DNA of 64,000 nucleotides from a phage. This document shows positions 21,847-57,820 of this stretch, one piece after another. The stretch is from the sequence record PZ452608.1. One strand, written 5' to 3'. A program made the translations under genes and the position numbers. Every line of letters starts with the position of its first letter. The first letter of the stretch is position 1. The notes under the pieces are model-generated. The model was not told the origin of the DNA. It ran no database searches and worked only from the letters and a program-made list of their open reading frames with translations.

Positions 21847-22916
21847 TTAACCAACACCCAATCTTTTTAGGTGGTGAGAGAAAGACATTTGACTCACTTA
21901 ATAAGCACTACCCAAAAATCTTTGAGCTATATAAACAACAAAAAGCGCAAGACTGGTCAGAAGATGAGTTTCCTTTTGAACAATCACGTCTTGATTTTGA
22001 GAGTGTGCCAGCATCAATGTCAGGTGTAATGCTTGAGATTCTTAAGTGGCAGTGGGAAGCAGATACCCAAGTTGCTAAGAGCTTGGCATTCGCCTTTGCA
22101 CCATTCATCTCTGATGACATCTATGCAACTGCAATTATGAAGCAGTCTGAGATTGAAAACCTACATGCTCTTACTTACTCAGAGATTGTAAGGCAATGTA
22201 TTAAAAACCCTGAAACAATCTTAGATGAGATTAACCAGAATGTTGCTGTACAAGACCGATTAAAAACTGTGAATCGTGTTCTTGAAGAATTACTGGATGA
22301 AGGTATAAACTATCGCCTGAGTTATGTCCGTGATTCACTTCTTGACAAAGACCCTTTACACTTCCATAAAGTGATTCTGAAAGGGCTGTTTGCAGTGACT
22401 GCACTTGAAGGTATATCTTTTATGGCATCCTTTGCATGTACTTTTGCACTTGATGCTCAAGATAAATTTCAGGGTATTGCTCAAGCTGTCCAGAAAATTA
22501 TGCTTGACGAAATCCTTCACACTAAAATTGATATTGAAGTTTTAAAAGAAACTTTAAGAGATGATGAGTGGCAGAAAGCTTTTCAACAAATTCTTCCAGA
22601 GATTAAAGTAATCTTAGATGAAGTAGTTGAAAGTGAAGAGAAATGGTCGTATTATATCTTCTCTGAAGGACGTGCTGTAGTTGGGTTAAATACAAAACTT
22701 CTTCATGAGTGGGTTTACTATAATGCTGCCCCACTGTATGATATGTTTGGTATTCCCAGAGATTTTGTAGCTCCTAAAGAACCACCTTTGAAGTATATGA
22801 TTAAGAAGATGGAAATTGATAAAGAGCAGAATGCTAATCAGGAGCAACAGAACGGTGCGTACCTGTTGAATACTGTTGTAGATGATTTGAATAGTGGATT
22901 TTTAGAGGTTCCTTAA
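21843..22916 (+). CDS. nrdB: ribonucleotide reductase class I small subunit
   Basis: Assigned by size and position after nrdA; start at ATG (MINQHPIF) with AAAGGAG RBS; no di-iron motif was checked. Confidence 0.7.
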   Translation: MINQHPIFLGGERKTFDSLNKHYPKIFELYKQQKAQDWSEDEFPFEQSRLDFESVPASMSGVMLEILKWQWEADTQVAKSLAFAFAPFISDDIYATAIMKQSEIENLHALTYSEIVRQCIKNPETILDEINQNVAVQDRLKTVNRVLEELLDEGINYRLSYVRDSLLDKDPLHFHKVILKGLFAVTALEGISFMASFACTFALDAQDKFQGIAQAVQKIMLDEILHTKIDIEVLKETLRDDEWQKAFQQILPEIKVILDEVVESEEKWSYYIFSEGRAVVGLNTKLLHEWVYYNAAPLYDMFGIPRDFVAPKEPPLKYMIKKMEIDKEQNANQEQQNGAYLLNTVVDDLNSGFLEVP

Positions 22917-37280: not shown

Positions 37281-37292
37281 GGTTAAGATACA

Positions 37293-37313
37293 GGCTCCTT
37301 CGGGAGCCTTTTT
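37293..37313 (+). terminator. intrinsic terminator (UUCG tetraloop)
   Basis: GGCTCC-TTCG-GGAGCC then TTTTT. Confidence 0.55.
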
Positions 37314-37332
37314 CATTTCAGGAGATTGTTAA

Positions 37333-37680
37333 ATGACATTTAAAGAGTTCTGTCAAGCTACTTTCATAGTTGTTTTCTTAGTTGGGGCAGGTGTCTGGGG
37401 AGGATACTCTTACAGAGACTACCAAGTTGCTGAAACTGAGCTAAACAATGAGAAGCTGATAAGTGTTGCTAAAGATGCTTATCAGGAAGGATTAGCTACA
37501 CTGAGCACCAATTACAAAAATGATTTGAAAGATGTGCTTGCTAAGAATAAGCACACAAAAGAGGTACTAACGTATGAAAAAACTAAGCCAGAGTTTTATA
37601 ATGTTTGTGTTACTGATAATTATGTCAGGGTGTTCAACGAACAAAGTGAACAGTACATTCAAAAACTCCCAAGTAAGTGA
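37333..37680 (+). CDS. membrane-anchored protein, candidate i-spanin
   Basis: N-terminal TM (FIVVFLVGAGVWGG) plus helical periplasmic-type region; overlapped out of frame by a lipoprotein gene. Confidence 0.35.
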   Translation: MTFKEFCQATFIVVFLVGAGVWGGYSYRDYQVAETELNNEKLISVAKDAYQEGLATLSTNYKNDLKDVLAKNKHTKEVLTYEKTKPEFYNVCVTDNYVRVFNEQSEQYIQKLPSK

Positions 37681-52692: not shown

Positions 52693-52718
52693 AAATAAAA
52701 AAGGCTCCCGAAGGAGCC
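52693..52718 (-). terminator. intrinsic terminator (UUCG tetraloop) after endolysin gene
   Basis: Minus strand GGCTCC-TTCG-GGAGCC then TTTTTT. Confidence 0.55.
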
Positions 52719-52728
52719 TATGAAGATA

Positions 52729-53193
52729 TTACTTTGGGTATACACTGTCAAGATAAATGTCAGCTTCCATTCTACGTCTGTTTTTCAGTCCGTTTGAAGT
52801 GACCTTCTTACCTTTGACTGTAACCTTGTTCCACCACTGCATAGCTTCTGCACAACCCACCTTATTACCAGCATTGTGGCGCTTGATAAATGTGGAATCC
52901 TGCATAGCTGTGATACCAATGTTGTATGTTTCACTTACAAGTGCGTCAAACTCATTCTGAGAAGTTGGAACATTGACGGCTTTGTTCACTGCTGCAACAA
53001 ACTTTTCAACATCTGCGAGAAGATACTGTTCAGCTTGTTCAGCGGTAATCTTCATACCCATCTTAACAGGTTTTCCGTCAATACGGATTGTCCCATACCC
53101 GATTGTTGGGATTCCGGCAGAATCTTCGTAAGCCTCTAACTCCAGACCTTCGAAGAACTTAATAGCATCTAAACCTTTTCTTGAGAGTTGCAT
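52729..53193 (-). CDS. endolysin, phage lysozyme (GH24-like)
   Basis: FEGLELEAYEDSAGIPTIGYGT catalytic-region pattern of T4/lambda-type lysozymes. Confidence 0.75.
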   Translation of the reverse strand: MQLSRKGLDAIKFFEGLELEAYEDSAGIPTIGYGTIRIDGKPVKMGMKITAEQAEQYLLADVEKFVAAVNKAVNVPTSQNEFDALVSETYNIGITAMQDSTFIKRHNAGNKVGCAEAMQWWNKVTVKGKKVTSNGLKNRRRMEADIYLDSVYPK

Positions 53194-54326
53194 TACGCCT
53201 CCCCTGCTGGGTTAACTGTAACTGTTGCTGCATTAGATGTTACAGAGCCACCTGCACCAGTAACTACACAGGTGTAGCTTCCTGCATCAGCAGCGGTCGC
53301 ACCTTCTTTGGTGTAAGTTGCAGTAGTTGCATCGAGGATGTCTTCCTCACCTTTCTTCCACTGGTAACCTGTCGCACCTGTTGCCACAACATTCAGCGTT
53401 AAGGTCTCACCTTCATTGATTTCTTGATTGGTTGGCTGTTGAGTAATTACTGGAAGTGCGTTCACAGTTACTACAGCAGCATTAGATGTCACTGCACCAC
53501 CCGCACCTGTTACAACGCAAGTATATGAGCCTGCATCTGCTGGCAGAGCACCAGACTTGCTATAGGTAGCATTTGTAGCTGAAGGAATGTCAGAGCCATC
53601 TTTCTTCCACTGGTAACCTGTCGCACCTGTTGCAGTCACTTCCAAGTTAATGCTTCCACCCTCATTGACAGTCTGACCAGAAGGCTGCTGTGTAATCACA
53701 GGCAGTGCATTAACAGCAACTGTTGCCGCATCTGAGGTAACACTTGTTCCAGCCTCTCCAGATACAACACAAGTGTATGAGCCAGCATCAGAAGGTACTA
53801 CAGACTGTTTTGTATAAGTTGCAGAGGTGGCACTAGGAATATCCTCTCCATCCTTTTTCCATTGATATCCAGTGGCATTCGTTGCAATAACACTTAGGGT
53901 AAGCGTACCACCTTCATTTACTGTTTGATTGGTTGGTTGCTGAGTGATTGCTGGTGGCTTGATAGCATCCTTCAACTTAGCATTCAACATTGAGAATGGT
54001 TTAACTCTTGCCAGCCATTCACAATAAATTGTGTCAACGTCTTTACCATTGATAATTGCATATTGTAAGTCCATGAAGAAGTCAGAAGTTCTCATTTGAG
54101 CACCAATGCTGTAAAGCAACTCATCACTAAATGGAACTTTGTAGTCTGGTTTGTAGTCAAACTCATCGACTTCTGCAATATCAGCTTCAGGCCAATACGA
54201 ACTGTAGGTAAGCGGTAAAATAGCCTCTTGATATGTTCTAAAATCATATCTCTTACCAGCCTTTACGTTTGCAATGAAGCCCTTCACAAACTCTTTGAAG
54301 TCTGGGTAAGTCTTTGCTTTAATCAT
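53193..54326 (-). CDS. Ig-like domain repeat protein
   Basis: Three tandem repeats of about 85 aa (ITQQP.NQTVNEGG.L.L.V.AT.ATGYQWKK.G.DI...ATY.K...AGSYTCVV.G); N-terminal 125 aa paralogous to the upstream gene product. Confidence 0.55.
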   Translation of the reverse strand: MIKAKTYPDFKEFVKGFIANVKAGKRYDFRTYQEAILPLTYSSYWPEADIAEVDEFDYKPDYKVPFSDELLYSIGAQMRTSDFFMDLQYAIINGKDVDTIYCEWLARVKPFSMLNAKLKDAIKPPAITQQPTNQTVNEGGTLTLSVIATNATGYQWKKDGEDIPSATSATYTKQSVVPSDAGSYTCVVSGEAGTSVTSDAATVAVNALPVITQQPSGQTVNEGGSINLEVTATGATGYQWKKDGSDIPSATNATYSKSGALPADAGSYTCVVTGAGGAVTSNAAVVTVNALPVITQQPTNQEINEGETLTLNVVATGATGYQWKKGEEDILDATTATYTKEGATAADAGSYTCVVTGAGGSVTSNAATVTVNPAGEA

Positions 54327-54694
54327 TTCTTTTCAGCCTCTAAATGTGCGTTTAGTCTAAAATAACCTTTGTGATTCGGAGATACATCACCAACGACAAT
54401 ACCTTTAACCTTATAGCCTTTACCAATTACATACTGGATATCCATAAGGAATCTTCCAAGACCAACAATATGGAACATTGGGTATAATAGATTCTCAGAG
54501 TCTGGAATATTGATTTCAGGTTTGTAGGTACGCTGTTCGCTTGTTGGTGTAATATCTTCTTCAGGCCATTTACTGAGTCTCCATGTCAAAGGTGTTGGGA
54601 TAACATCATTAAGGTTGTACCTTTCACCATTTTGCACGGAATTGATATAGGATTGTAGGAAGCAATAAAAGTCTTTTGCACTCTTAGCTTTCAT
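54323..54694 (-). CDS. hypothetical protein, paralog of N-terminal domain of Ig-like protein
   Basis: Shares M.KAK..F..F....V..G.RY....PLT....WPE.DI...YKP....P.S..LLY..FMD.QY.I..G pattern with 53193-54326 N-terminus. Confidence 0.45.
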   Translation of the reverse strand: MKAKSAKDFYCFLQSYINSVQNGERYNLNDVIPTPLTWRLSKWPEEDITPTSEQRTYKPEINIPDSENLLYPMFHIVGLGRFLMDIQYVIGKGYKVKGIVVGDVSPNHKGYFRLNAHLEAEKK

Positions 54695-54741
54695 TAAATA
54701 TCCTTATAAATAGTTAAAGGGGCATAAGCCCCTATTCACAC

Positions 54742-55951: not shown

Positions 55952-56323
55952 ATGAAAAACAGAACAAACAAAGGCCAGTTTAAAAAAGGCCAATCTGGAA
56001 ACCCATCTGGAAGACCAAAAGGCTCTCGCAACAAAAGCTCACTTGTAAAAGCTCAACTGACCATTGATAATTCTGCTGAGTTTGCTGCAAAGTTGTTTGA
56101 AGCGATTGTTACAAGGGATGCTGCTAAGCTTGCAGAGTTCGGGTTAAACACAGACGATGTAACCATCAAGAGCATGATTGAAGTCGGTAAAACTATCATG
56201 ACCCACTCAGCAGGTGAGATGAAAGCAATTGCAGCAGACACTAAGAAGACTCCTGATAACGGCGGTCAGTCTCAGACAGATAACAAACCAACGTTCTCTG
56301 CTGTTGCAACCCTTAAAAAATAA
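55952..56323 (+). CDS. hypothetical protein with GNPSGRPKG motif
   Basis: 123 aa; N-terminal KGQSGNPSGRPKGSRN. Confidence 0.4.
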   Translation: MKNRTNKGQFKKGQSGNPSGRPKGSRNKSSLVKAQLTIDNSAEFAAKLFEAIVTRDAAKLAEFGLNTDDVTIKSMIEVGKTIMTHSAGEMKAIAADTKKTPDNGGQSQTDNKPTFSAVATLKK

Positions 56324-56404: not shown

Positions 56405-57820
56405 ATGAGCGAATTATTTAAACATGCGCACCTTCATGCAGGTCGAACTGAAAATGGTGCTGTAAACCATACTTCATCAATGTCTGCTCTTGTAGACTTT
56501 TACAAAGCTGCTGGTTCAAGCCGTAGCAATGTAGAAATCTTACCAGACCTGTTCTACAAAGCTTTGCGTGAGGATGTTGATGTTGCAGTTCGTATTTTAC
56601 TGCATATGCGAGATGTACGAGAAGGTATGGGTGAGCGTAAAGCCTTCAGAACTGTTTTACTTCAAGCGATTGAAGACAAAGTTTTAGAGTCTACGCAGGT
56701 TCTTCGCATTATGGATAAGATTGCAGAACTTGGTCGTTTTGATGACTTCAAAATCTTCGTAGGTACTCGTTTCGAGACAGATGCCTTCAAACACTTAGAA
56801 GCAGCATTACTAGACCCTGCAACAGCAGGTTTGGCGGCTAAGTGGTTACCACGAGTCAAACCACGTCATAAGCAGTTTGTAAAACGTTTCTGCAAGTTTG
56901 CCAACTTGAGTGAGAAAGAGTACCGCACACTGTTGTCTGCACTATCTGATACAGTTGAGCAAAAAATCTCTGCTAATGAGTTTGGTAAGATTGACTACAG
57001 TAAGATTCCTTCACTTGCTGCTGCACGTTACCAAAAACTGTTTAACCGTAAAGATGGAGAGCGTTACAAAGCTTACATCGAGTCCTTATCAAAAGGTGAG
57101 ACTAAGATTAACGCTGGTGCTGTTTACCCATACGATGTGATTAAATCTGTCAAGTATGGTAATGCAGATGTTGCTAATGAGCAGTGGAAAGCACTACCAA
57201 ACTGGATGGCAGAAGGTGAAAACATCTTGTGTATGTCTGATGTATCAAGTTCAATGTCTTGGGTGAATTTTGGCTCCATTACTGCTCTGGATATTGGTGT
57301 ATCACTTGCCTTGTATGTAGCAGAACGCAATACAGGTTGCTTTAAGAATGAGTTGATGGTTTATTCGACAAACCCTCACTTCATCGAACTGAGTGGTGAT
57401 TTACGAAACCGTCATCGTCAGGTGATGCGACACGTTGAATATGGCTCAACTAACTTACAAGCAGCTTTTGACCGCATTCTTGAAACAGGTAAAAGAAACA
57501 ACTTGACTCAGAAAGATATGCCAAGTAAGCTTATCATCTTCTCCGATATGGAGTTTAATCAGGTTGATGGAGCTAACGGTCGTACAAACTTTGAAGCAAT
57601 TCAGAGTAAGTACAAAAAAGCTGGATATGAGATGCCACAACTGGTATTCTGGTACTTAGCAAACCGTAATGGTACTTGCGAAGTATCTGTTAAGGATAAC
57701 GGTGTAGCAATGGTATCAGGGTTCTCTCCAGCCACTTTAAAAGCTCTGCTTGGTGGTGAGAAGTTTGACCCAATCAGTGTAATGCTCAAAGCAGTAATGA
57801 TTGACCGTTATATCTGGTAA
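56405..57820 (+). CDS. vWA (MIDAS) domain protein with N-terminal helical domain; possible Ro60/TROVE-like
   Basis: 471 aa; MIDAS-like DxSxS (CMSDVSSSMSW) and downstream IIFSDMEFN; long helical N-terminal region; TROVE assignment is inference only. Confidence 0.4.
   Translation: MSELFKHAHLHAGRTENGAVNHTSSMSALVDFYKAAGSSRSNVEILPDLFYKALREDVDVAVRILLHMRDVREGMGERKAFRTVLLQAIEDKVLESTQVLRIMDKIAELGRFDDFKIFVGTRFETDAFKHLEAALLDPATAGLAAKWLPRVKPRHKQFVKRFCKFANLSEKEYRTLLSALSDTVEQKISANEFGKIDYSKIPSLAAARYQKLFNRKDGERYKAYIESLSKGETKINAGAVYPYDVIKSVKYGNADVANEQWKALPNWMAEGENILCMSDVSSSMSWVNFGSITALDIGVSLALYVAERNTGCFKNELMVYSTNPHFIELSGDLRNRHRQVMRHVEYGSTNLQAAFDRILETGKRNNLTQKDMPSKLIIFSDMEFNQVDGANGRTNFEAIQSKYKKAGYEMPQLVFWYLANRNGTCEVSVKDNGVAMVSGFSPATLKALLGGEKFDPISVMLKAVMIDRYIW

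What the first reader, a model, noticed from the sequence alone, without database searches (positions are those of the whole stretch)
53193..54694. Ig-like triple-repeat protein and an adjacent duplicate of its N-terminal domain
Seen in sequence: the 377-aa protein has three tandem repeats of about 85 aa that are highly similar to each other (ITQQPxNQTVNEGGxLxLxVxATxATGYQWKKxGxDIxxATxATYxKxxxxxxDAGSYTCVVxG), an Ig-like pattern with the conserved YxC. Its N-terminal 125 aa is paralogous to the whole upstream 123-aa gene product. The pair sits next to the endolysin gene. The recent internal duplications and the free-standing N-domain copy suggest a rapidly evolving surface, decoration or adhesion protein.
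Basis: seen in the sequence. Interest (0 to 1): 0.5.

Follow-up and report, generated by a model that had tools for sequence, protein, structure and literature searches.

The report
Hoc-like capsid decoration protein, plus paralog
The 377-aa protein is the already solved "Hex-Dec" head-decoration protein of Felix O1-like phages (a capsid anchor carrying three Ig-like domains), so it is ordinary; the only loose end is the small upstream gene, an undescribed anchor-only copy whose role is unknown.

Summary
The window is Escherichia phage wV8 (Felixounavirus). ORF 53193-54326(-) encodes wV8 gp41, with a 124-aa N-terminal domain and three 83-84-aa Ig (I-set/Ig_3) repeats. ORF 54323-54694(-) encodes gp42, a true paralog of that N-domain. 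Endolysin lies immediately downstream.

The protein is already known. It is about 96% identical to Bas63 Hex-Dec (PDB 9NCF chain S) and is a clear homolog of Sf14 gp20 (9C2D chain S). Both are cryo-EM-located Hoc-like decoration proteins. Their N-terminal capsid-binding domain plugs as a monomer into the 60 edge hexamers of a T=9 capsid. The published variation of 1-4 Ig domains is reproduced here.

The "recent duplication, rapidly evolving" reading is wrong. Synonymous sites between repeats are saturated and omega is about 0.06-0.13. Only copy number is labile, through in-register unequal recombination at a 34-nt block shared by repeats 2 and 3.

The residual novelty is gp42:
- It has the anchor fold only and is conserved in 233 of 253 related phage records, with omega about 0.18.
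- It lacks both capsid-clamping arginines.
- It is absent from two virion proteomes and from the cryo-EM density.
- One natural lineage has lost it.

Its function is unknown. Most likely it is a diverged, non-virion accessory protein.

The parts
54323..54694 (-). wV8 gp42, 123 aa. A free-standing paralog of the Hex-Dec capsid-binding domain (anchor fold only, no Ig domains).
   Evidence: The ORF is listed. phmmer against the PDB hits only the CapBD of 9ncf_S (E 1.2e-11) and 9c2d_S (E 5e-11). The AF2 model has pLDDT 65, and Foldseek hits only 9ncf_S and 9c2d_S with TM 0.61-0.66. It belongs to phrog_4463, 'unknown function'. Omega is 0.17-0.19. It is full length in 233 of 253 phage records.
53955..54326 (-). 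[quoted passage not shown] It includes Arg79 and Arg107.
   Evidence: These residues align over 1-364 with 9ncf_S and 1-371 with 9c2d_S. R79 and R107 are invariant in the Hex-Dec alignment. In Sf14 these arginines form salt bridges to MCP Asp221 (PMC11821841). The wV8 MCP keeps D221.
53703..53954 (-). Ig-like repeat R1 (gp41 aa 125-208).
   Evidence: Pfam Ig_3/I-set, tblastn of a repeat unit, AF2 pLDDT above 90.
53454..53702 (-). Ig-like repeat R2 (gp41 aa 209-291).
53205..53453 (-). Ig-like repeat R3 (gp41 aa 292-374). A 3-aa tail and the stop codon follow at 53193-53204.
53600..53633 (-). 34-nt block in R2 that is identical to a block in R3 (it encodes ATGATGYQWKK). It is the inferred crossover site for in-register loss of one repeat.
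   Evidence: There are two exact copies in the window and none expected by chance. The second Ig unit of Felix O1 is 100% wV8-R2 up to this block and about 97% (nearly identical) wV8-R3 after it.
53351..53384 (-). The second copy of the same 34-nt block, in R3.
52729..53193 (-). Endolysin (wV8 gp40). It is the last gene of the gp42-gp41-gp40 unit, and its start overlaps the gp41 stop (TAATG).
   Evidence: Pfam Phage_lysozyme E 9e-41, record annotation, junction sequence.
54719..54732 (-). Small GC hairpin (GGGGC-TTAT-GCCCC followed by a T-rich tract) between gp43 and gp42, annotated as a rho-independent terminator. It marks the upstream edge of the three-gene unit.
   Evidence: Sequence. The wV8 record annotates it at 22719-22732.
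52702..52719 (-). Intrinsic terminator after the endolysin gene, marking the downstream edge of the unit.

Best explanation
gp41 is the wV8 ortholog of the Felixounavirus/Mooglevirus 'Hex-Dec' capsid decoration protein (Bas63 Hex-Dec, Sf14 gp20). This protein is analogous to T4 Hoc.

What is shown in homologs and transferable by sequence:
- Its N-terminal domain of about 120 aa binds as a monomer in the central depression of the 60 pentamer-proximal (facet-edge, quasi-3-fold) hexamers of the T=9 head.
- Arg79 and Arg107 clamp it there through salt bridges to Asp221 of three MCP subunits.
- It does not bind the 20 hexamers on the true 3-fold axes.

What is inferred:
- The three acidic I-set Ig domains (pI about 4.1) project as a flexible fibre.
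- By analogy with Hoc, they mediate weak adherence to glycans, mucus or cell surfaces, or control particle aggregation.
- The protein is made late, from a three-gene unit gp42-gp41-endolysin bounded by two terminators.

The three repeats are old and under purifying selection. Repeat number changes in whole units (210, 294, 377 or 461 aa, giving 1-4 Ig domains) by unequal homologous recombination between repeats.

gp42 is an old, derived duplicate of the anchor domain alone. It is translationally coupled to gp41. It keeps the hydrophobic core of the fold and the WPExDI and F.MD.QY motifs, but has replaced both clamp arginines (Gly, and Asn/Gln/His). My best guess is that it no longer occupies the mature quasi-3-fold hexamer site. 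I think it acts as a dispensable accessory that is either absent from the virion or present only below detection, possibly touching capsomers only transiently during assembly. I put about 0.45 on this. It is an inference, not a result.
For: Identity of the window: it is 100% identical to phage wV8.

Identity of gp41:
- gp41 matches 9ncf_S at E 7e-288 and 9c2d_S at E 8e-169, both over the full length.
- The papers that deposited these entries place the protein at hexamer centres on facet edges. They also describe the N-terminal CapBD, the R79/R107-D221 salt bridges, the variation of 1-4 Ig domains and the 'tail protein' mis-annotation (PMC12609058; PMC11821841).
- R79 and R107 are invariant in Hex-Dec.
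- The wV8 MCP is about 99% identical to the Bas63 MCP and keeps D221.
- The Felix O1 ortholog gp36 was detected in virions by MS (PMC3185647).

Ig fold: Pfam, AF2 and Foldseek.

Age of the repeats: pS between repeats is 0.70-0.83 and omega is about 0.11-0.13.

Copy number: 31 loci have lengths quantised at 210, 294, 377 and 461 aa. Chimeric units occur, and the Felix O1 junction maps to a 34-nt identical block.

gp42:
- Paralogy is supported, and the fold.
- Omega is 0.17-0.19.
- The gp42/Hex-Dec/lysozyme synteny persists in a metagenomic phage whose gp42 is only 45% identical.
- More distant relatives carry a single CapBD gene, and four of the five distant single-copy members score higher to the Hex-Dec profile, so gp42 is the derived copy.
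- The arginines are replaced in all 18 aligned gp42 sequences (wV8 plus 17 orthologs).
- gp42 orthologs are not among the virion proteins of Felix O1 or VpaE1.
- The cryo-EM papers report no density on the other hexamers.
- One lineage (Z31, REP11, L022) shares a single 228-bp internal deletion of gp42, and two of the three (REP11, L022) keep Hex-Dec intact while Z31's Hex-Dec ORF is interrupted.
Against: - No experiment on wV8 itself places gp41 on the capsid. The wV8 proteome paper identified only the tail fibre.
- The function of the Ig fibre is only an analogy with Hoc. Both structural papers say that its role and its essentiality are unknown.
- For gp42, absence from two older virion proteomes and from icosahedrally averaged maps is weak negative evidence. 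A 14-kDa monomer on a 3-fold axis at 20 copies would be smeared by averaging and could be missed by MS.
- The gp42 model has only moderate confidence (pLDDT 65).
- I could not inspect the deposited coordinates to see which other CapBD residues touch the capsid. The invariant WPExDI motif shared by both paralogs could be a retained capsid contact.
Confidence: 0.9

Rival explanations
1. gp42 is a second, anchor-only capsid decoration protein. It would sit on the 20 true-3-fold hexamers that Hex-Dec avoids, or on procapsid hexamers before expansion. The two paralogs would then partition the two hexamer classes of the T=9 shell.
For: gp42 has the same fold as the capsid-binding domain. It is co-transcribed and translationally coupled with Hex-Dec. 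It is under purifying selection and is retained across deep divergence. Its own conserved surface segment (YPMFHIVGLGxFLMDIQYV...GDVSPxHKGYF) differs from that of Hex-Dec, as expected for a different binding site. The Sf14 paper shows that the D221 geometry differs in the 3-fold hexamers. A monomer on a 3-fold axis would be blurred by icosahedral averaging.
Against: Both cryo-EM studies report no density at the other hexamers. The ortholog is not among the MS-identified virion proteins of Felix O1, where proteins as small as 9.7 kDa were detected, or of VpaE1. It has lost both arginines that clamp to the acidic hexamer centre. A natural lineage has lost it.
Confidence: 0.12
2. gp42 is a functionless, decaying remnant of a tandem duplication of the 5' end of the decoration gene.
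For: It has been internally deleted in one viable sub-lineage, about 19 of 253 records. It evolves faster than the CapBD: 45% versus 58% identity to the divergent L033 pair, and omega of about 0.18 versus about 0.06. It has no detected virion role.
Against: Omega is 0.17-0.19 at dS of about 1. Length is constant at 122-124 aa, with an intact ORF in 233 of 253 phage records and in 50 protein clusters. Long family-specific invariant segments exist. The gene is retained with the same synteny in a phage only 45% identical. A neutral remnant would not survive that divergence.
Confidence: 0.08
3. gp41 is a tail protein or major tail subunit, as annotated in RefSeq, PHROGs and the original Felix O1 record.
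For: The database labels read 'tail protein', 'HK97 major tail subunit' and phrog_3995 'tail protein'. PHROG major-tail-protein families are hit at E 1e-39.
Against: The tail-family hits cover only the Ig repeats (residues 96-208 and onward). These domains are promiscuous and also decorate tail tube proteins. The N-domain matches only the capsid-bound chains of 9NCF and 9C2D. The Bas63 paper states explicitly that the tail annotation is an error.
Confidence: 0.02
4. One reading: the three repeats arose by recent duplication, and the protein is under rapid, diversifying evolution.
For: The repeats are 71-72% identical in protein. Repeat number differs even among phages that are more than 95% identical elsewhere.
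Against: DNA identity (66-69%) is lower than protein identity, and synonymous sites are saturated. GC3 of the repeat region (0.30) is in the range of neighbouring genes (0.32-0.39) and not elevated, so there is no sign of recent import. R1, R2 and R3 each have positional orthologs at 82-100% identity in other phages. Omega is well below 1.
Confidence: 0.04

Closest known systems
Bas63 (Escherichia phage JohannRWettstein) Hex-Dec, PDB 9NCF chain S (PMC12609058)
   Same: It is the same protein family and genus. Sequence identity is about 96% over residues 1-364. It has the same N-terminal CapBD with R79 and R107, the same I-set repeats, a nearly identical MCP partner, and the same locus next to the endolysin gene, outside the structural module.
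   Different: Bas63 has four Ig domains. An extra unit, about 76% identical to R1 and R2, is inserted between the wV8-type R2 and R3. wV8 has three.
Shigella phage Sf14 gp20, PDB 9C2D/9C3A chain S (PMC11821841)
   Same: It has the same architecture: a CapBD followed by three Ig domains, 372 aa. It was MS-detected in virions. It binds as a monomer to the quasi-3-fold hexamers through R79 and R107 contacting MCP D221.
   Different: It belongs to a different genus (Mooglevirus). Its CapBD is about 85% identical to wV8's by eye, and its Ig units are more diverged.
[quoted passage not shown]
   Same: It works alike. It is a monomer at hexamer centres with a string of Ig-like domains projecting from the head, it is acidic, and it is non-essential. 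PHROG 'Hoc-like head decoration' families hit the Ig region at E 1e-41.
   Different: The capsid-binding domain is C-terminal in Hoc and N-terminal here. According to PMC12609058 the anchor is larger, topologically distinct and pseudo-C2 symmetric. Only the Ig parts are homologous. The relation is therefore analogy, not orthology.
T5 pb10 decoration protein (PDB 5LXK, 8ZVI)
   Same: [quoted passage not shown] Its Ig domain is detectably homologous to the wV8 repeats (E 4e-12).
   Different: It has a single Ig domain, and its anchor domain gives no detectable sequence match to CapBD (the PDB hit covers only Ig residues 133-210).
Distant CapBD-family proteins from metagenomes (P0101-P0105)
   Same: They have the same N-terminal anchor family (profile E 1e-10 to 9e-5). 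In one case (P0105, L036/L037) the gene sits in the same position next to a phage lysozyme gene.
   Different: There is a single copy per locus with no free-standing paralog. The C-terminal display module is swapped: Big_2, a single I-set domain, or a Lys/Ser-rich tail.

Membership tests
Ounavirinae Hex-Dec / Sf14 gp20 capsid decoration protein | [quoted passage not shown] | tested here: met
   phmmer gives E 7e-288 and 8e-169, with alignment starting at residue 1.
Ounavirinae Hex-Dec / Sf14 gp20 capsid decoration protein | The clamp residues Arg79 and Arg107, together with the partner Asp221 in the major capsid protein. | tested here: met
   R79 and R107 are present in gp41 and invariant in alignment A2. 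The wV8 MCP has D221 and is about 99% identical to 9ncf_A. The role of these residues is taken from PMC11821841.
Ounavirinae Hex-Dec / Sf14 gp20 capsid decoration protein | A C-terminal string of 1-4 Ig-like (I-set/Ig_3) domains. | tested here: met
   Three Pfam Ig_3/I-set stretches, AF2 pLDDT 92-97, and Foldseek matches to Ig arrays.
Ounavirinae Hex-Dec / Sf14 gp20 capsid decoration protein | The gene lies outside the structural module, immediately upstream of the endolysin gene. | tested here: met
   The MCP gene is about 15 kb away in the wV8 record.
Ounavirinae Hex-Dec / Sf14 gp20 capsid decoration protein | Physical presence on the 60 edge hexamers of the wV8 virion. | not testable with these tools
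   This has been shown only for the Bas63 and Sf14 homologs, by cryo-EM. The Felix O1 ortholog gp36 was detected by virion MS.
T4 Hoc family | A capsid-binding domain homologous to that of Hoc (C-terminal). | tested here: not met
   The anchor is N-terminal. It has no PDB sequence or fold match other than 9NCF_S and 9C2D_S. PMC12609058 calls it topologically distinct. Only the Ig region hits the Hoc-like PHROGs.
Phage tail tube / major tail protein (the current database label) | Homology to a tail tube or tail protein outside the accessory Ig domain. | tested here: not met
   The tail-family PHROG hits are confined to residues 96-208 and onward, which is the Ig region. The N-domain matches only capsid-bound chains.
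CapBD fold family (applied to gp42) | Sequence and fold homology to the Hex-Dec capsid-binding domain. | tested here: met
   E 1.2e-11 to 9ncf_S. Foldseek TM is 0.61-0.66 over 117-118 columns with no other PDB fold below E 0.7. The model has only moderate confidence (pLDDT 65).
CapBD fold family (applied to gp42) | Conservation of the capsid-clamping arginines. | tested here: not met
   The R79 position is Gly and the R107 position is Asn, Gln or His in all 18 gp42 sequences in alignment A1.
CapBD fold family (applied to gp42) | Presence in the virion. | not testable with these tools
   The literature is negative. The ortholog is not in the Felix O1 list or the VpaE1 list, and no extra hexamer density is reported.

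The most novel reading that the evidence does not exclude
gp42 is not a by-product. It is the second half of a two-paralog system that partitions the two hexamer classes of a T=9 capsid. As an anchor-only protein, it would cap the 20 true-3-fold hexamers, or all hexamers of the procapsid transiently. That would restrict the Ig-bearing Hex-Dec to the 60 edge hexamers. It would have escaped notice because icosahedral averaging smears a monomer sitting on a 3-fold axis, and because it is small and low in copy number. A prediction follows: the natural gp42-deletion phages (REP11/Z31 lineage) would show an altered Hex-Dec occupancy pattern.
Probability: 0.12. Interest if true: 0.5.

Novelty: already known. 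Interest (0 to 1): 0.2.

Why it matters
For the main object it matters little. The family was solved and described in 2025, so wV8 gp41 can simply be re-annotated from 'tail protein' to 'Hoc-like hexamer decoration protein'.

Two small additions come out of this check.

First, there is direct sequence evidence that Ig copy number changes by in-register unequal recombination. The Felix O1 unit 2 is wV8 R2 fused to R3 at a 34-nt identical block. This answers a question the Sf14 authors left open, namely gain from host genes versus loss.

Second, the two structural papers read here and the full-text searches run here do not mention the conserved anchor-only paralog gp42, and PHROGs lists its family as of unknown function. 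If it proved to interact with capsomers, it would be relevant to three topics: how decoration proteins discriminate between quasi-equivalent hexamers, phage display on Felix O1-like heads, and engineering of these therapeutic and biocontrol phages.

Tried and rejected
- The word-indexed protein search with the CapBD returned almost only 210-aa (one-Ig) clusters and missed the query's own 377-aa form. I did not use it for the length distribution. I used 31 fetched loci instead.
- AF2 did not fold the CapBD inside full-length gp41 (pLDDT 31-55). The Sf14 authors report the same problem. No conclusions were drawn from that part of the model.
- I considered a -1 frameshift fusion of gp42 to gp41 across the ATGA overlap. 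I rejected it because there is no X_XXY_YYZ slippery heptamer in GCT GAA AAG AAA TGA, and because the frame relation between the two genes differs in SUSP-type phages.
- I considered recent horizontal import of the Ig block, because the region has a GC of 0.474 against 0.387 for the window. I rejected it because GC3 is only 0.296, so the excess GC reflects the Ala/Gly/Thr-rich protein composition.
- I looked for the major capsid protein in the window to check D221. It is not in the window, so I fetched it from the wV8 record instead.
- I looked for virion MS evidence on gp42. The wV8 proteome paper covers only the tail fibre. The Sf14 paper and its supplement do not list or mention the ortholog. 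Further literature searches found no other structural study.
- I searched the whole 64-kb window for further CapBD or Ig copies and found none.
Full report
**What the window is.** The 2.7-kb region around the finding is 100% identical to Escherichia phage wV8 (Felixounavirus, Ounavirinae). It is 95-99% identical to dozens of Felix O1-like phages. In the wV8 record the 377-aa ORF is gp41 ('tail protein'), the 123-aa ORF is gp42 ('hypothetical protein') and the downstream gene is the endolysin gp40.

**Check of the observation.** gp42 and gp41 overlap in ATGA, and gp41 and the endolysin gene overlap in TAATG. An annotated terminator hairpin precedes gp42, and a strong intrinsic terminator follows the endolysin gene. 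The three genes therefore form one compact unit.

The three repeats are aa 125-208, 209-291 and 292-374. They are 71-72% identical in protein and 66-69% identical in DNA, and unit-to-unit blastn gives E 6e-32. Pfam finds three Ig_3/I-set domains (E 1.7e-33 and 2.5e-26). An AlphaFold2 model gives pLDDT 92-97 across residues 125-375, and Foldseek matches titin I67-I69, Robo1 and LRIG1 Ig arrays at E about 1e-20.

The N-terminal 124 residues are truly paralogous to gp42:
- The alignment score is 143, against 27 +/- 5 for shuffles.
- tblastn gives E 1.5e-14.
- The PHROG cross-hits are reciprocal.
- There are 26 invariant columns across 32 sequences of both families.

No other copy of either module exists in the 64-kb window.

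**What gp41 is.** A sequence search of the PDB gives near-identity to chain S of 9NCF (E 7e-288) and a full-length match to chain S of 9C2D and 9C3A (E 8e-169). These are the icosahedral capsid reconstructions of phage Bas63 (PMC12609058) and Shigella phage Sf14 (PMC11821841).

Both papers describe the protein as a Hoc-like decoration protein, named Hex-Dec in Bas63 and gp20 in Sf14. They report the following:
- The N-terminal domain of about 118-122 aa (CapBD) binds as a monomer in the centre of the 60 facet-edge, pentamer-proximal hexamers of a T=9 capsid.
- No density is seen on the other hexamers.
- In Sf14 the contact is made by Arg79 and Arg107, which form salt bridges to Asp221 of three MCP subunits.
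- The Ig domains are flexible and were not resolved.
- The number of Ig domains varies from 1 to 4 across the genus.
- The gene lies more than 10 kb outside the structural module.
- The 'tail protein' annotation is an error.

I verified the transferable parts for wV8. R79 and R107 are present and invariant. The wV8 major capsid protein, which is encoded outside the window, is about 99% identical to the Bas63 MCP and keeps D221. The Felix O1 ortholog gp36 was found in virions by mass spectrometry.

The 'tail' PHROG hits touch only the Ig region. The object is therefore an already characterised family.

**Recent and rapidly evolving?** No. Between the three repeats the proportion of synonymous differences is 0.70-0.83, which is saturated, while pN is about 0.21. 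The duplications are old, and the similarity between repeats is maintained by selection.

Each wV8 repeat has a positional ortholog at 82-100% identity in other phages. Omega between orthologs is 0.06-0.12 for Ig1 and about 0.06 for the CapBD. The raised GC content of the region (0.474) comes from amino-acid composition, because GC3 is only 0.296, so there is no sign of recent import.

What is labile is copy number. In 31 related loci the protein is 210, 294, 377 or 461 aa long, corresponding to 1, 2, 3 or 4 Ig units. Several shorter forms are chimeras. The second unit of Felix O1 is 100% identical in DNA to wV8 R2 up to a 34-nt block (GCAACAGGTGCGACAGGTTACCAGTGGAAGAAAG). That block occurs identically in R2 and R3. 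After it, the Felix O1 unit is about 97% identical to wV8 R3. One-Ig forms such as L023 are fusions of the R1 N-half with the R3 C-half. This is the signature of in-register unequal homologous recombination. It is a small addition to the published picture.

**The free-standing N-domain copy, gp42.** This is the only part the two structural papers do not mention. PHROGs lists its family as of unknown function.

Evidence that it is a real gene:
- It is full length in 233 of 253 related phage records.
- It is 122-124 aa in nearly all of the 50 protein clusters.
- Omega is 0.17-0.19 at dS of about 1.
- The order gp42, Hex-Dec, lysozyme is preserved in an 87-kb metagenomic phage whose gp42 is only 45% identical.

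Its AF2 model has moderate confidence (pLDDT 65). It matches only 9ncf_S and 9c2d_S in the PDB, with TM 0.61-0.66.

A profile search of 1.84 billion representative proteins finds only 12 clusters, so the family is tiny. More distant members are single-copy. They carry other display modules: Big_2, one I-set domain, or a Lys/Ser-rich tail. Four of the five distant single-copy members (all but P0105) score about twice as high to the Hex-Dec CapBD profile as to the gp42 profile. gp42 is therefore the derived copy.

gp42 retains the core residues and the WPExDI and F.MD.QY motifs. It has replaced both clamp arginines, with Gly and with Asn/Gln/His, in all 18 aligned gp42 sequences (wV8 plus 17 orthologs).

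Several observations argue against a major virion role:
- Its orthologs are not among the virion proteins of Felix O1 or VpaE1.
- No extra hexamer density is reported.
- One sub-lineage (Z31, REP11, L022, about 19 of 253 records) shares a single 228-bp internal deletion of the gene. REP11 and L022 still encode an intact Hex-Dec, whereas Z31's Hex-Dec ORF is interrupted. gp42 is therefore dispensable and is not an obligatory chaperone for Hex-Dec.

**Most likely mechanism.** The shown part is that gp41 anchors through its CapBD to the edge hexamers. The inferred part is that it displays an acidic three-Ig fibre which, like Hoc, mediates weak adhesion or aggregation control.

For gp42 the best-supported reading is a diverged, dispensable anchor-fold protein that no longer occupies the mature Hex-Dec site and is not a major virion component. 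Any transient role at capsomers during assembly is speculation.

The more interesting alternative is that gp42 caps the 20 true-3-fold hexamers, or procapsid hexamers, and so helps set the 60-site pattern. This is not excluded, because icosahedral averaging and older proteomics are insensitive to such a component. I give it about 0.12.

**Verdict.** The feature is already known: it is Hex-Dec, the Hoc-like decoration protein solved in 2025. The remaining open point, the anchor-only paralog gp42, is modest but real and is directly testable with existing public data and maps.

Noticed in passing
window 56405-57820 (+), with 55952-56323 (+) upstream: A 471-aa protein annotated as 'RNA-binding protein' (wV8 gp47). 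A homolog in a distant relative carries DUF2828/DUF7788. It sits with a DUF5681 gene directly upstream of the phage tRNA cluster. This gene pair is conserved next to the decoration/lysin unit even in distant relatives. A Ro/TROVE-like tRNA- or RNA-handling role is possible.
   Followed up: no
window 52700-52719 and 37292-37311: The terminator hairpin after the endolysin gene (AGGCTCCTTCGGGAGCCT followed by a T-run) has a 20-nt exact copy on the opposite strand about 15 kb away. A terminator sequence appears to be reused.
   Followed up: no
gp41 residues 131-372 (window 53211-53936): The Ig repeats match the Aureispira grappling-hook protein GhpA (PDB 9FLP) at E 2e-63 over 11 stretches. This Ig subfamily (ITxQP...YQWxK...DAGxYxCxV) is shared between phage decoration proteins and a bacterial predatory surface filament.
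   Followed up: no
L002 (Shigella phage Z31) 2498-3070: In Z31 the Hex-Dec gene itself is split into 134-aa and 55-aa ORFs. The break may be a real interruption or a sequencing error. It comes in addition to the inherited gp42 deletion. If real, this would show that the decoration protein is also dispensable in that isolate.
   Followed up: partly
L036/L037 4001-4462 (metagenomic Ounavirinae-like contigs): In the same position next to the lysozyme gene, a distant relative has a single 153-aa CapBD protein with a Lys/Ser/Glu-rich tail instead of Ig domains. Other relatives fuse the anchor to Big_2 domains. The anchor appears to be a module that swaps display domains.
   Followed up: partly
L040 1288-1664 (wV8 record 37287-37663, outside the window): The wV8 genes annotated as 'tail protease' just upstream of the MCP gene are split into two ORFs (gp62/gp63). 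According to the Bas63 paper, 'tail protease' is a mis-annotation of the beta-tulip decoration protein Dec. The split may be a frameshift or a sequencing error in the wV8 record.
   Followed up: no
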